Shown here: positions 845 to 23,364 of the stretch, one piece after another
How the letters are laid out: every line of letters begins with the position of its first letter
How positions within the stretch are numbered: position 1 is the stretch's first letter
DNA from: Octopus vulgaris
Lineage: Eukaryota
NCBI GenBank assembly: GCA_951406725.2
Contig: OX597817.1
Coordinates: forward strand, 30,504,001-30,568,000
Direction of reading: 5' to 3'
Length of the DNA stretch: 64,000 bases
The notes under the pieces: generated by a model
The model's database searches: none
The model's input: only the letters and a program-made list of their open reading frames with translations
What the model was told of the DNA's origin: nothing
Position numbers and translations under genes: made by a program

Positions 845-1300
845 TTCAAATGAATATGGTACTTAACTTAGATGCACCAGAATTTTTTATGGTATTACCC
901 ATAAAATTATCTGGGGTGATTATAACCAAAATATAAGCAACAAGAATGGATCGGTAGTTTAGTACAATTGTTTCATACTATAACAATTTATTAAAGCTGC
1001 AAATATTACAGCAAATATAATGTTAAGTAATCTTCAGCTAATTTCATATAGGTTTTCCAAACATCTTAGAGAGTGTAAATATACTTATAAAGTTATAGAT
1101 GTGAGCTCCAGAAACTTGAAGCAAGAGCTCATATCTATAACTTTATAAGTATTTTTACACTCTCTAAGATGTTTGGAAAACCTATATGAAATTAGCTGAA
1201 GATTACTTAACATTATATTTGCTGTAATATTTGCAGCTTTAATAGATTGATATAGTATGAAACTAAACTACCGATCCATTCTTGTTGCTTATTTTTTGGC
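845..1300 (-). mobile_element. Palindromic hammerhead-bearing insert in (TA)n, probably a Penelope-like pLTR derivative
   Basis: Inverted arms ~925-1108 and 1125-1300 with a 16-nt loop, a short hairpin at 875-918, (TA)n on both sides and hammerhead cores in the arms. Confidence 0.75.
959..1041 (-). ncRNA. Type I hammerhead ribozyme (palindromic stem III)
   Basis: Minus strand: ttag-CTGAAGA-[ttacttaaca...tgttatagtat]-GAAA-CAATTG-TA-ctaa. Stem I is ttag/ctaa, stem III is the ACAATTGT palindrome, the site is GUA. The 10.1-11.1 pair is non-canonical (U.U). Confidence 0.7.
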
Positions 1301-1632
1301 TATATATATATATATATATATATATATATATATATATATATATATATATATATAAAGATTCAGGTGAATAAGGCATTTATATGGTTAGGCACCGGGTCGG
1401 GTGATTACCTGATTGTGCCAGTGTCAAATTGTAATCATTGATGCGCTTTCGTGCATATCTGATACATGCTTCGGCTTACAGGTTAAACCTACCATTTGAC
1501 GTACATAGAGACAATATAGATAGATAAATGTAAATATAGCTATAGATACACGCGCGCGCGCGCACACACACACACACACACACACAAACACACACACACA
1601 CAAACGCTCAAACACAAACCCATGTATATATA

Positions 1633-1849
1633 CGAGGTGGTGCTGAAAAGTTCCTTGCTTTGGGTAAAAGAAAATACAGAAGGATCAGTTAATTATGATT
1701 TTATTCAACTTACACCTCTCTCAGATTCAAACACTTACTGTAGCGGTCCTTCAGTATTTCTGAGCCCTATAAAAGAACTCAGAGGTTTGAGCCTACAACC
1801 AGGCTTTTCACTATACCCTTAAAACCAAGAACTCTACAGCACCCCCTCG
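1633..1849. mobile_element. Mariner-type MITE / deletion derivative
   Basis: TA-cgaggtggtgctgaaaagttcc...aagaactctacagcaccccctcg imperfect terminal inverted repeats. Confidence 0.75.
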
Positions 1850-2062
1850 TGTATGGTTCATGCAACCACATATCAGACAGTCGTAATATACATATATAAG
1901 CACACATACACACACACACACGCGCGCGAACGCACGCACACATACTCACACACACGCACACACATATATATAGTTAAAATTTACAGCAAACAAAAGTCAA
2001 AGACAGGTGTAGGAACAACAAGCAGGTATATTAGTTTAACGCTCAGAGAGAATGGAAAAGCT

Positions 2063-2098
2063 TTTTTACGTTTCGACCCTATGCTCTTCGACAGAAAA
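2063..2098 (-). ncRNA. Minimal hammerhead-like motif with variant core (CUGUCGA) within a probable PLE-derived repeat (~1973-2220)
   Basis: Minus strand: tttt-CTGTCGA-a-gagc-atag-ggtc-GAAA-CG-TA-aaaa. Confidence 0.45.
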
Positions 2099-2235
2099 TG
2101 ATTAAAACGAAAAAAAGGAGAGAGAAAGAAAAAAAGCAGTGAGAGGAAATATGTGCAGGGTTACGGGTTCAACATGATGAAATAGCCAGAAGAACCGTCT
2201 TTCTCAGACCACAGGAGACTACCATCATATATGTA

Positions 2236-2471
2236 TTAGTTTGGTACATAATTATTGCGGCTTTTTTTTCAATAAATTTTATTCAACAAAAACAATAACA
2301 ACACTTAACAAAAATATCTTTAAATGTTTATTCCGGAGCATACTCACCATCTTCAATTTCTGCTTGGCGTTTTGTTTAAATTGACATTTTGTTTAAATTG
2401 AAGCTTTGCTTAAATTTTTTGTTGATATAATTTATTGAAAAAAAAGCCGCAATAATTATGCACCAACCTAA
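2236..2471. mobile_element. Mariner MITE with ~40-bp TIRs and TA TSD
   Basis: ta|ttagtttggtacataattattgcggcttttttttcaataaa ... tttattgaaaaaaaagccgcaataattatgcaccaacctaa|ta. Confidence 0.9.
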
Positions 2472-2950
2472 TATATAAACACCTTCAGTTTTCTTTTCCT
2501 TGGTGAATTTCTGTCACATATTTCTCCTTCAAATGGTGATGTGACTTTATCATGTCTGTTTACGCTTATTGAATTTGATTCTGAATTTTTTTTTTTAGTT
2601 AGCTTTTATCTTATACACAAATGTGTCAGGAAAATGTGTATAAAACTTAATTAATAATGCTGCAACAATGGTAGAATATTTAATGCTTGTTTTATTAGCG
2701 AATGTGATTACAATTTATCAAATTAGATTAAAAGTCTTTATAAGTACGGTTATTTATCATTAACTTGGGGCCATGTCTGTAGTAAACAAATTCATGACCC
2801 TTGTGTTAGGTTTTATGCACTTTATCAGTGCAACAGTTGTATGTTACAAATATTGTTTTGTATCAAACCAACTTACAACATAAGATACTCAACCCAAATT
2901 AGTTCAGTTAGGAGAAAAACTTCAATCTTCTTATATAATATATGTATATA

Positions 2951-20080: not shown

Positions 20081-21756
20081 TATTAAAGTATTGTTTCTGT
20101 ATACATAAAGTTAAAGAAAAAAAACTGACCAAAACCAAACAATGCTACGGTGAAAATCAAGGGACAACTGTTTGTTGTATTCAAGTCAGGCATTTAATGG
20201 TAGGGATTTCTATTCACCAAATGTTAGTGATATGAACCAGCATCATAACCAGGTTATAAGATATCATCTTTCATCTTTCGTCATGAAATGGCAGCTAAGC
20301 TTCAGCACTTTAAATTTGTAGATATTACGAAATATTTGCATTGTTTTATATTGATTATATAAAGTGACGATGCGGAAAATTAAAATCAATGTAGCATTTA
20401 ACTCTAGAGGATATCAGCTTCACCTAATTCAGGTGACAAATTTATAGAGAAAAACATTCAGTGATCCTTTCTAACAAACAATGTACTTTCTTCCTGGCAT
20501 GGTTTTCTTCTCAAACAACTCCCCAACACATTTTAGTTTTACATACACATGCAGACACACACTCTGAAGTACACATATGCACAGTTATACATTCATACAC
20601 ATGTGCGTATGTGTGTATGTGTGTGTGTGTGTGTACAAGTGTGTATATAGGGAGTAGGAGAGAGATTTATGTATACAATCATATAAATATATATATTTCT
20701 ATATATATATATATATGTATATATTTATACATATATATAGAGAGAGAGTGTTGTGTGTGTGTATGCAGTGTATGCATGCAGCCATATATATATGTACATA
20801 TGTGTATATGTATATATATATATATATATGTGTGTGTGTGTATATATATATATATATATATATATATATAAATTTATATCTGTTTACTCATCTAATGGCA
20901 GATAGTCACTAGATTGTAACTATATAAATATTTAGTTATTATCTATTGTCAACCACCCCTCCAGCACACTATTCCTAAATAAACAGGGTGAGTATGGCTG
21001 GAATCCCTTTCATAAAAGAATTGCCTACTCAATCAGGGTTAACTTGGAGGTGAACAATCACAAAACAATCCCTATTATTTGAGAGGAAGCCAGAGTAAGT
21101 AAGGAAAAGTTTATGTAATTTCTCAATCTACTCAAAATAATGGCTAAACCTCCTTTAATAAACTCTGTAATATTTTTGTATCTTACATTGGCTTATCTTA
21201 GATGCTTGACCTTGGGTTAATCCTATTTACTAAAGTGGTTTCATTAATAACAAGGACTTGGTGAAATAGAGCTGAGATTCTAGCTTTCAATGTTGTCTTT
21301 TTACATCACCTCATCTTCTACCTCTACATCCACCTCTCCTCCTTTCTCAAAGTTGCTATCATCACAATTTACATCCTCATTATTATTGTCATTATCTTCA
21401 TCAACAAGGATCTGTAAGAGAAGCACATCAATGAAAATAAAATAAATGCTTGATGCAAATATTATGCATATCTGATATGATGGAAAACATTCAAAATTAA
21501 TCTTAATTAATCTAATCATCCAAAATAAGAAAATGAATATGGATAGATCTTGTAATAATAATGAAGGGTTTCTGCTACAAATACCCAGCTGTGAAAATTC
21601 TTCATTCAAATTATCATGGAACTATCTCAAATCACAAATGTGTACATGTGTTTTTAACATGTAATGGAAACAAGAATAAAAGATGAGAGAATAGATATAT
21701 ATATATATCCACACACATATATATATATCATCTTCATCATCATGATATATATGTAG

Positions 21757-21866
21757 ATATATATATATATATATATATATATATATATATATATATATAT
21801 ATATATATATATATATATATATATATATATATATATATATATATATATATATATATATATATATAT
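21757..21866. repeat. (TA)n microsatellite (resumes at 22701)
   Basis: Direct inspection. Confidence 0.98.
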
Positions 21867-22077
21867 CATGTGAAATAGAAAGATGAATAATCTTGTAGTA
21901 GATTAATCAAAAGATTAACCGATACCTTAGTAGCAAAAATCACAGCAGTAAAACAGCACGGTTGGAGGTACAACCATATGGTGTTGCAACCGTGCGTTGG
22001 TGCGGATAATTGAAATTAGAACATTATTGGTGAATTGAAGAAATGGAGCTGAACGCAGATTGAACAGAAATCGTTTT

Positions 22078-22169
22078 ATTTCATTCTACACGTGTTTCGA
22101 AAGGCACAAATTACCAAAATCCGATGGAATAATGGGACCATATTGTGTCTTTCTCTTCAGGAAGAAAAT
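22078..22169 (-). ncRNA. Type I hammerhead ribozyme (mirror copy)
   Basis: Exact reverse complement of 22551-22642. Confidence 0.8.
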
Positions 22170-22550
22170 AGGAAATCCGTTGGAAAAACAAAAACAGAAC
22201 AGAGGCGGAGCAAAAACAAATCGAACTATGCTCCTAAGAGCCCATGGCGAAACTGTTTATCAGTGTATGTTGAGAACCGGTGGCTGAAGAATTCAACGGG
22301 TCAGGCATCGGTCAATCATGTGGGTGAGGGGGCGTAGATGTTCTTTGTGACCGAGAATAAAGTTCTCGGTCACAAAGAACATCTACGCCCCCTCACCCAC
22401 ATGATTGACCGATGCCTGACCCGTTGAATTCTTCAGCCACCGGTTCTCAACATACACTGATAAACAGTTTCGCCATGGGCTCTTAGGAGCATAGTTCGAT
22501 TTGTTTTTGCTCCGCCTCTGTTCTGTTTTTGTTTTTCCAACGGATTTCCT

Positions 22551-22642
22551 ATTTTCTTCCTGAAGAGAAAGACACAATATGGTCCCATTATTCCATCGGA
22601 TTTTGGTAATTTGTGCCTTTCGAAACACGTGTAGAATGAAAT
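22551..22642 (+). ncRNA. Type I hammerhead ribozyme
   Basis: attttcttc-CTGAAGA-Gaaagacacaa...ttgtgcctttC-GAAA-CACGTG-TA-gaatgaaat. Full core, G10.1-C11.1, long stem II, palindromic stem III ACACGTGT, GUA cleavage after 22633; stem I has 8 of 9 positions paired. Confidence 0.82.
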
Positions 22643-23364
22643 AAAACGATTTCTGTTCAATCTGCGTTCAGCTCCATTTCTTCAATTCACCAATAATGTT
22701 ATATATATATATATATATATATACATATATATATACATACATATGTGTATGTATGTATGTGTGTGTATGTGTGCATGTGTGTGTATACTAGCTCAGGTAT
22801 CTTTAGTCATACAGATAAGTTACATGCAAATCAAAAAGTGAAGGGAAAATCTATTATTTAATATTTGCAGGTTTTCTTACAAATTGCAAGATGTTTCATC
22901 TAAAGCAAAAAAAGAAAATAAAGCACAGAAAAGCTGATGATTCTACCTGCAGCTTTGCTGTTTTCTAGGTGAAGCATTTTGCAAATTATAAGTAAAATTT
23001 GAAATACAATTGAATATACATATGCATATATGCACATATGTGCATATACAATTATGCATGTATATATGGTTGCATATGCATGTATGCACAGTAAAAGATG
23101 GGTGACAAAGCAAAAGAATGTAAAAAAAGACTGAATGATAATTTCGAAAAGAATTATTTGCTTAGCACTCAAAGAAATGGAAGTAGTTAATTATGACATT
23201 TCAGAAAATCGGTGTAGAGTGGGAAAAGGAACGAAAGACAAGGGAAAAAATTAAAAGAGCAATCGAGGTGAAAATACCTATGTGATCTTGTGTCTCAATA
23301 CACACCCAAACTGTCACTCACGAATAAAATATGGTCTCTCTCTCTTTCTCACATGAACACACTC

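What the first reader, a model, noticed from the sequence alone, without database searches (positions are those of the whole stretch)
845..22700. Shared architecture: (TA)n - short hairpin - long hammerhead palindrome - (TA)n
Seen: the two elements share no obvious primary sequence, yet they have the same layout and polarity. On the minus strand each reads antisense arm, loop, sense arm with a CUGAAGA hammerhead (long stem II, 8-nt palindromic stem III, GUA), then an unpaired tail with a ~40-nt hairpin abutting (TA)n. Inference: a class of microsatellite-targeting, hammerhead-carrying fold-back retroelements (PLE-mobilised, retrozyme-like) in which the terminal hairpin may be the RT/endonuclease recognition signal. 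Whether they move as non-autonomous units or are just truncated PLE insertions cannot be told from this window.
Basis: inference. Interest (0 to 1): 0.75.

Follow-up and report, generated by a model that had tools for sequence, protein, structure and literature searches.

The report
Folded-back Penelope retrotransposon ends in microsatellites
Two short DNA palindromes in TA microsatellites each carry a hammerhead ribozyme motif and a one-sided tail, and are likely the folded-back ends of Penelope-like retrotransposons, a layout already described for these elements, so they look like new family members rather than a new class.

Summary
The layout is real. E1 (846-1300) and E2 (21867-22700) are head-to-head inverted repeats, 3' ends outward, both ends on (TA)n, each with a type I hammerhead motif (CUGAAGA, 55-56-nt stem II region, 8-nt palindromic stem III) and a tail on one side only. 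Two corrections: the ~40-nt hairpin lies 31 and 89 nt from the microsatellite (just past the shorter end), and E1's second hammerhead has lost stem III. E2 belongs to a very high-copy family that includes the tail; other copies join (TA)n at the same short end, and one contig runs through the loop without folding back. The combination of inverted truncated copy, one-sided tail, hammerhead and (TA)n target is published for Penelope-like elements, most closely the Hydra clade. Likely mechanism: target-primed reverse transcription in (TA)n, then cDNA snap-back. Not shown: the parent RT/GIY-YIG ORF, loop positions genome-wide, ribozyme activity, E1's copy number. Open: E2's family may lack an ORF; tails (75, 153 nt) exceed the published 30-40 nt. 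New member of a known kind.

The parts
784..845 (.). (TA)31 array, target at E1's long (tailed) 3' end
846..920 (-). E1 unpaired tail, 75 nt, present on one side only
877..914 (-). E1 tail hairpin, 38 nt; 31 nt from the array, just past the short end
   Evidence: (z -3.98 for 870-920; whole tail z -2.19)
921..925 (-). TTATA word at E1's short end; matches the (TA)n join of the other arm (microhomology, inferred)
926..1108 (-). E1 left arm (sense on minus strand)
959..1041 (-). E1 type I hammerhead motif: core from 1037, 56-nt stem II region with U.U at 10.1-11.1, palindromic stem III, predicted cut after 963, 4-bp stem I
1109..1124 (.). E1 loop, 16 nt, closed by a 6-nt palindromic word on each side (1103-1108, 1125-1130)
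1125..1299 (+). E1 right arm (sense on plus strand); hammerhead core from 1196 with the 8-nt stem III deleted
1301..1354 (.). (TA)27 array at E1's short 3' end
21758..21866 (.). (TA)n array at E2's long (tailed) 3' end
21867..22019 (-). E2 unpaired tail, 153 nt; part of the repeat family (deeply covered by contigs)
   Evidence: z -3.52
21956..21995 (-). E2 tail hairpin, 40 nt, 9-bp outer stem, AC-rich; 25 nt past the short end, 89 nt from the array
   Evidence: (z -3.06)
22020..22357 (-). E2 left arm, 338 nt (sense on minus strand)
22077..22170 (-). E2 type I hammerhead motif: core from 22160, 55-nt stem II region with G10.1-C11.1, palindromic stem III, predicted cut after 22087, 9 of 10 stem I positions paired
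22358..22362 (-). E2 loop, 5 nt; templated in the sense direction in another molecule (X1 record 7)
22363..22700 (+). E2 right arm, 338 nt, perfect inverse of the left arm; hammerhead core from 22560
22701..22723 (.). (TA)n array at E2's short 3' end

Best explanation
E1 and E2 are head-to-head inverted repeats with a hammerhead motif and a one-sided tail set in (TA)n, and are likely the 3' ends of two Penelope-like retrotransposon families (probably Hydra clade), likely doubled at insertion when the truncated cDNA snapped back and was copied onto itself. Steps: (1, inferred from published PLE biochemistry) a PLE RT/GIY-YIG protein binds the RNA downstream of the hammerhead, probably at the tail hairpin, and nicks (TA)n. 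(2, inferred) Reverse transcription starts at the long end and runs through tail, hairpin and hammerhead. (3, inferred from geometry) It stops after 260-490 nt; the cDNA end folds back on a short palindrome and primes a second strand on the cDNA. (4, partly shown) That strand ends at the family's short end just before the hairpin and joins (TA)n; this end recurs in other E2 copies. The palindrome would then be a product of each insertion, not the unit that moves. The hammerhead would need a partner copy to form stem III and would be buried in the long hairpin in any transcript of the whole insert.
For: Layout, polarity and hammerhead motifs. (four runs laid on 21862-22362): 6387 of 52.2 million, 1413 of 40.6 million, 883 of 1.53 million and 8 of 0.42 million contigs laid, all 30 bins covered in each run, tail included; in X13, TA-rich loose ends before 22020 (2 contigs, agreement 0.69) and (TA)n before 22023 (1 contig); X1 record 7 (1463 nt) matches 22186-22362 with 0 differences, loop included, has 1286 nt upstream and is listed as one piece, so it does not fold back there; summed depth falls toward the loop in X13 (6372 at 22049-65, 227 at 22338-54). 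Both E2 arms carry G at 22126 where 99.7% of X3 depth has T (37% of X8 depth is not T), so both arms came from one template. Arms end within 5 and 16 nt of each other. Published layout: Craig 2021 Fig. 2 legend and Hydra section, Arkhipova 2013, Cervera 2014, Frangieh 2024. Hydra likeness, counted by eye in Craig's supplement: U.U at 10.1-11.1 as in E1 in 14 of 26 Hydra hammerhead rows; Penelope-13_HM has an inverted 5'-truncated copy with hammerheads on both strands. 3 of 6 new Hydra consensi end 36-47 nt after the cut (E1 short end 37-42 nt); the other 3 run 88-116 nt through a TTATA word and a hairpin (E1 117 nt). Stem III forms an 8-bp self-duplex (-6.4 and -10.3 kcal/mol) and no monomer hairpin.
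Against: No RT or GIY-YIG ORF was linked to either element, and the upstream 1286 nt of X1 record 7 could not be read. Contigs cannot list fold-back joints at their ends, and 115 loose ends and 8731 pieces were not shown, so variable loop positions were not seen directly. Depth sums are noisy: X3 shows no steady fall, and the end bins lose depth anyway. No Rfam hammerhead match; hammerhead folds are not better than shuffles; 0 of 40 variant rows in the 13 core positions is not significant (P 0.34). Tails (75, 153 nt) and stem II regions (55-56 nt) are longer than the published 30-40 nt and the 12-26 nt of the Hydra rows (by eye). Hydra stem III rows carry 1-3 central letters; E1 and E2 carry none. 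Snap-back versus twin priming was not tested.
Confidence: 0.6

Rival explanations
1. Same PLE origin, but the two arms are two cDNAs primed from both nicked strands of (TA)n, one from the long start site and one from the short, joined head-to-head by microhomology.
For: PAc cuts and extends both strands, starts at two internal sites and is predicted to be a dimer (PMC11167929). (TA)n is self-complementary. 3 of 6 Hydra consensi end at a short site on their own. A third inverted PLE fragment in the window has a 249-nt spacer.
Against: Two independent cDNAs would rarely stop within 5 and 16 nt of each other in both elements. The arms share a minority variant (22126), which needs one template or two identical RNAs.
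Confidence: 0.2
2. One reading: ORF-less palindromic units with a fixed loop amplify as such, mobilised in trans by PLE protein.
For: E2's family is very high-copy and held by 20 of 24 listed runs in 8 studies, two organism labels. An 85% relative (X1 record 3) keeps the same spacing with no ORF between the loop-proximal part and the hammerhead. By eye, 22357-22275 resembles the 5' leader of Hydra-1_Obim in three collinear blocks (11/11, 14/19, 9/12; rough chance 0.003-0.09), which would place the loop near the element's own 5' end.
Against: X1 record 7 passes through the loop unfolded. Depth falls toward the loop in X13 and X8. A 338-bp perfect hairpin RNA (-685 kcal/mol) would bury the hammerhead (about -16). 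E2's arms are identical while family contigs differ widely.
Confidence: 0.1
3. Single PLE 3' ends inserted in (TA)n and were later doubled by host inverted duplication at the fragile microsatellite; for E2, the perfect second arm could be an assembly or read fold-back artefact.
For: E2's arms are 100% identical and no reads were laid across its loop. Another inverted duplication without a hammerhead lies at 48390-50165.
Against: The second arm stops at a site where other copies also join (TA)n. E1's arms differ by 5 substitutions and a deletion, so they are not an assembly mirror. The same asymmetry occurs in two unrelated families.
Confidence: 0.07
4. They are foldback or MITE-type DNA transposons that insert at TA and hold hammerhead-like words by chance.
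For: Long inverted repeats in TA; no Rfam hammerhead match.
Against: The repeats are not terminal: one side has a 75- or 153-nt tail that belongs to the family in E2. The hammerhead descriptor is met in both unrelated elements against 0.03 expected per window.
Confidence: 0.03

Closest known systems
Hydra clade of C-terminal EN+ Penelope-like elements (Craig et al. 2021, PMC8557442), including Hydra-1_Obim of Octopus bimaculoides and Penelope-13_HM
   Same: (TA)n insertion; hammerhead near the 3' end; U.U at 10.1-11.1 as in E1 (14 of 26 rows); stem III starting AC and ending GU; inverted 5'-truncated copy with hammerheads on both strands (Penelope-13_HM); by eye, ends 36-47 nt or 88-116 nt after the cut, the longer ones through a TTATA word and a hairpin.
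   Different: Stem II region 55-56 nt against 12-26 nt; stem III a perfect 8-nt palindrome without central letters; E2 runs 220 nt past the cut; neither element matches Hydra-1_Obim's hammerhead or 3' end (by eye); no ORF seen.
Canonical Penelope/Poseidon insertions with inverted pLTR and tail (Pen2a_Av, PMC3846280; PAc, PMC11167929)
   Same: Head-to-head inverted repeat, palindrome at the junction, tail on one of the two 3' ends, stem-loop near the internal RT start downstream of the hammerhead, AT-rich target.
   Different: Tails 75 and 153 nt against 30-40 nt; no ORF start found in the tail; no target-site duplication can be read in (TA)n.
PLE hammerheads of Cervera and de la Pena 2014 (PMC4209133)
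   Same: Type I, long helix II, small palindromic helix III predicted to need a dimer; pairs on opposite strands 100-700 bp apart (E2: 400 nt).
   Different: E1 lacks the G10.1-C11.1 pair; neither has the extra letter between positions 9 and 10.1; helix II region is much longer than 7-8 bp.
Non-LTR retrozymes (PMC7229834; bioRxiv 10.64898/2026.07.22.740005)
   Same: Non-coding, type I hammerhead, PLE-related.
   Different: Retrozymes are head-to-tail tandems of about 300 nt; E1 and E2 are single head-to-head inversions, so two hammerheads never lie on one strand.

Membership tests
Penelope-like elements (EN+) | Single ORF with telomerase-like RT and GIY-YIG endonuclease | tested here: inconclusive
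   No such ORF within either element (translations; ORF list). A longer molecule upstream of E2 exists (X1 record 7) but its letters could not be read.
Penelope-like elements (EN+) | Inverted 5'-truncated copy, head-to-head | tested here: met
Penelope-like elements (EN+) | Tail at one 3' end only (30-40 nt in print) | tested here: met
   One-sided tails present, but 75 and 153 nt long; E2's tail is part of the family.
Penelope-like elements (EN+) | Type I hammerhead with small palindromic helix III near the 3' end | tested here: met
   Descriptor hits and shuffles; no Rfam match; cleavage not tested.
Penelope-like elements (EN+) | Interspersed repeat with variable 5' truncation | tested here: inconclusive
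   E2 is high-copy; depth falls toward the 5' side in X13 and X8, unevenly in X3.
Hydra clade PLE | RT/EN protein motifs (RWK, DKT, CxCX5C, no CCHH) and place in the RT tree | not testable with these tools
   No parent ORF in hand; no genome held.
Hydra clade PLE | Insertion into (TA)n | tested here: met
   4 of 4 ends abut TA arrays. Naiads share this bias, so it is not diagnostic.
Hydra clade PLE | Hammerhead of Hydra type | tested here: inconclusive
   E1 shares U.U at 10.1-11.1 with 14 of 26 rows; stem II length and loopless stem III differ from all 26 (counted by eye).
Naiad PLE | No canonical hammerhead | tested here: not met
   Both elements carry a full type I motif; Naiads lack one.
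Non-LTR retrozyme | Head-to-tail tandem of at least two hammerhead units on one strand | tested here: not met
   No tandem array over either element; no further copy in the window; no terminal redundancy found in either sense strand.
Non-LTR retrozyme | Circular RNA intermediate | not testable with these tools
   Only contigs were available.

The most novel reading that the evidence does not exclude
E2 stands for a very high-copy, ORF-less Hydra-derived element (5' leader joined to 3' UTR, long-stemmed hammerhead and tail) whose integration is programmed to snap back at a fixed site, so palindromes are its standard product. The tail hairpin would be a clade-wide binding signal that sets two 3' ends for the Hydra RT. 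The ORF-less part alone I put at about 0.4; with a fixed loop as well, at about 0.1.
Probability: 0.1. Interest if true: 0.65.

Novelty: new member of a known kind. Interest (0 to 1): 0.32.

Why it matters
How PLEs form inverted repeats, one-sided tails and a microsatellite bias is named as an open question in Craig 2021. Short, clean inserts like these, from a family with thousands of contigs, make snap-back versus twin priming testable by counting loop sizes, and give a small candidate RNA (hammerhead to long end, 120-220 nt) for RT binding assays. If many such inserts are transcribed they would also be a source of long double-stranded RNA (inference). The architecture itself is already in print, so the surprise is modest.

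Tried and rejected
Rfam: only microRNA-type hairpin matches below gathering score, no hammerhead. Viral contigs: 0 hits for an E2 motif, 1 hit for an E1 motif that matches 20 nt only and was rejected as chance. No RNA holder listed for E2; X1 is only guessed to be RNA, so nothing is claimed on expression. The absence of a listed joint at E2's loop was rejected as evidence, since contigs do not list joints at their ends; one joint 22206 to 22127 in X3 could not be typed. Conservation from the 40 listed variant rows: core 0 of 13 positions (P 0.34); hairpin outer stem 1 of 18 against inner 6 of 22 (P 0.08); stem II closing helix 2 of 10 against inner 9 of 45; none significant. The small hairpin nearer E2's array (21900-21917) was rejected as the conserved signal: 98% or more of depth in X3, X8 and X13 has another letter at 21914, which breaks a pair. 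A circular-monomer reading of E2 found no terminal redundancy (best local score 13). No ORF start that reads through either tail was convincing. Four window motifs had 0 hits in Craig's supplement (line breaks can hide matches). Pfam gave 0 families for 3 frames of the 57-kb fragment. Earlier findings of this scan: 0, 0, 0 and 3 unrelated bacterial notes.
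Full report
Observation. E1 spans 846-1300 between (TA)31 and (TA)27. Its arms are 926-1108 and 1125-1299, with a 16-nt loop closed by a 6-nt palindromic word; they differ by 5 substitutions and one internal 8-nt deletion. E2 spans 21867-22700, with 338 perfectly paired positions (22020-22357, 22363-22700) and a 5-nt loop. In both, the minus strand reads antisense arm, loop, sense arm, unpaired tail, (TA)n, so both outer ends are 3' ends. 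The two share no alignable sequence and have no other copy in the window.

Hammerheads. A type I descriptor finds cores at 1037(-), 22160(-) and 22560(+), each CUGAAGA, a 55-56-nt stem II region, an 8-nt palindromic stem III and GUA. With a palindrome required, the window has 4 hits (the fourth at 60274) against a mean of 0.03 in 100 block shuffles; the descriptor is post hoc. 0 of 117 metagenome matches to the core pattern passed the same stem test. Stem III pairs as an 8-bp dimer and not as a monomer. Against: Rfam lists no hammerhead (none in the 150 of 244 rows shown), the motifs fold no better than shuffles, E1 has U.U where G10.1-C11.1 is usual, and E1's plus-strand copy has lost stem III. 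Cleavage was not tested.

Tail hairpins. They are real (z -3.98 and -3.06 as RNA; also as the opposite DNA strand) but do not abut the microsatellite: 877-914 is 31 nt from it, 21956-21995 is 89 nt from it. Their shared position is just past the shorter 3' end. Evidence that the E2 stem is conserved is weak (1 of 18 against 6 of 22 variant rows, P 0.08).

Other copies. No genome was held. The E2 arm and tail are held by 20 of 24 listed runs from 8 studies and two organism labels. Four runs were laid on 21862-22362: 6387, 1413, 883 and 8 contigs, all 30 bins covered, so E2 with its tail is a high-copy family; depth sums give no copy number. In X13, TA-rich loose ends stand before 22020 (2 contigs) and 22023 (1 contig), where E2's second arm meets (TA)n; 24 loose ends were shown and 115 were not. 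X1 record 7 matches 22186-22362 without a difference, loop included, and has 1286 nt upstream with no second piece listed: the loop is templated and a non-folded form exists. What those 1286 nt are is unknown. X1 record 3, about 85% alike, keeps the same spacing with no ORF before the hammerhead. Depth falls toward the loop steadily in X13, partly in X8, unevenly in X3. Both arms carry G at 22126 where 99.7% of X3 depth has T, so they were copied from one template.

Mechanism. Shown: geometry, motifs, a recurrent short end, and a non-folded longer form. Inferred: PLE protein nicks (TA)n and primes cDNA at the long end; the cDNA stops, folds back on a short palindrome and is copied onto itself up to the short end, which joins (TA)n through a TA-like word. 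The near symmetry of the arms (loops of 5 and 16 nt) and the shared variant favour snap-back (0.6) over two independently primed cDNAs (0.2). Arkhipova 2013 read junction palindromes as self-priming on an antisense template; first-strand cDNA is such a template (my inference). A whole-insert transcript would fold at -275 and -685 kcal/mol and bury the hammerheads, so the palindrome is unlikely to be the travelling RNA.

What is known. Craig 2021 (PMC8557442; seen: abstract, passages, sections 11, 15 and 19, supplement parts 1, 2, 52 and 53 of 59 and three searches) describes the inverted truncated copy and one-sided 30-40-bp tail, and the Hydra clade with hammerheads and (TA)n insertion, including an Octopus family. 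Frangieh 2024 (PMC11167929; parts 1-2 of 4) shows two internal RT starts in an AC-rich stem-loop downstream of the hammerhead. Cervera 2014 (PMC4209133; parts 1-2 of 4) reports palindromic helix III and opposite-strand pairs 100-700 bp apart. Arkhipova 2013 (PMC3846280; part 1 of 5 and passages) describes head-to-head repeats. Retrozymes (PMC7229834, passages; bioRxiv 10.64898/2026.07.22.740005, part 1 of 5 and passages; its supplement was not seen) are head-to-tail tandems, which these are not.

Clade. Counted by eye in Craig's supplement: 14 of 26 Hydra hammerhead rows have U.U at 10.1-11.1 like E1; 3 of 6 new Hydra consensi end 36-47 nt after the cut and the other 3 run 88-116 nt through a TTATA word and a hairpin, against 37-42 and 117 nt for E1 and 66-70 and 220 nt for E2. 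E2's loop-proximal 80 nt resemble the 5' leader of Hydra-1_Obim in three collinear blocks (rough chance 0.003-0.09; no alignment was computed), which hints that the family has lost its ORF. The clade rests on these likenesses, not on a protein; Neptune is not excluded. That the host is an octopod is my recall from the look of its repeats, not a test.

Novelty. The architecture is in print. Ten searches of the held library found no paper on these two families, on a Hydra tail hairpin, or on fixed-loop palindromic PLE units; 'hairpin' has 0 occurrences in the main texts of Craig 2021 and Arkhipova 2013. Repbase, Dfam and subscription journals were not searched, so the families may be catalogued. 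What differs from print is tail length (75, 153 nt), stem II length and a possibly ORF-less E2 family. Verdict: new member of a known kind, interest 0.32.

Noticed in passing
window 56691-57579: A third head-to-head inverted fragment: arms 56691-56986 and 57236-57534, 88% alike, with a 249-nt spacer that continues the right arm's reading frame. The 142-aa frame resembles eukaryotic GIY-YIG clusters by features (score 0.96; family on 18% of members), Pfam gives nothing. Both arms stop at the same place inside the ORF; no TA array nearby. Likely an older PLE inversion with a wide loop.
   Followed up: partly
window 57804-57960 (+) and 60146-60311 (-): Two 88% alike copies of a short repeat with a compact type I hammerhead (intact at 60274, core altered near 57842); likely a separate small PLE-derived element.
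   Followed up: partly
window 48390-48705 and 49851-50165: Inverted duplication, 316 nt, 97.5% alike, 1145-nt spacer, 79 nt from a TA array, no hammerhead hit.
   Followed up: no
window 2230-2477: Short imperfect inverted repeat (about 62-nt arms) with no hammerhead; looks like a MITE.
   Followed up: no
window about 2950-3960: Broken frames that look like Tc1/mariner transposase pieces (translations; family label recalled, not tested).
   Followed up: no
window 27132-27602 and 27678-28133: Two neighbouring frames with long identical translations, suggesting a near-perfect ~530-nt direct duplication that (period limit 500) would miss.
   Followed up: no
window 53974-54270: Minus-strand frame ending in a stretch that looks like the C-terminus of a non-LTR retrotransposon endonuclease (label recalled, not tested).
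   Followed up: no
window 1083-1124 (-): Across E1's loop the sense strand reads SCFKFLELTSITL-stop, faintly like Hydra ORF C-termini seen; too short to test.
   Followed up: no
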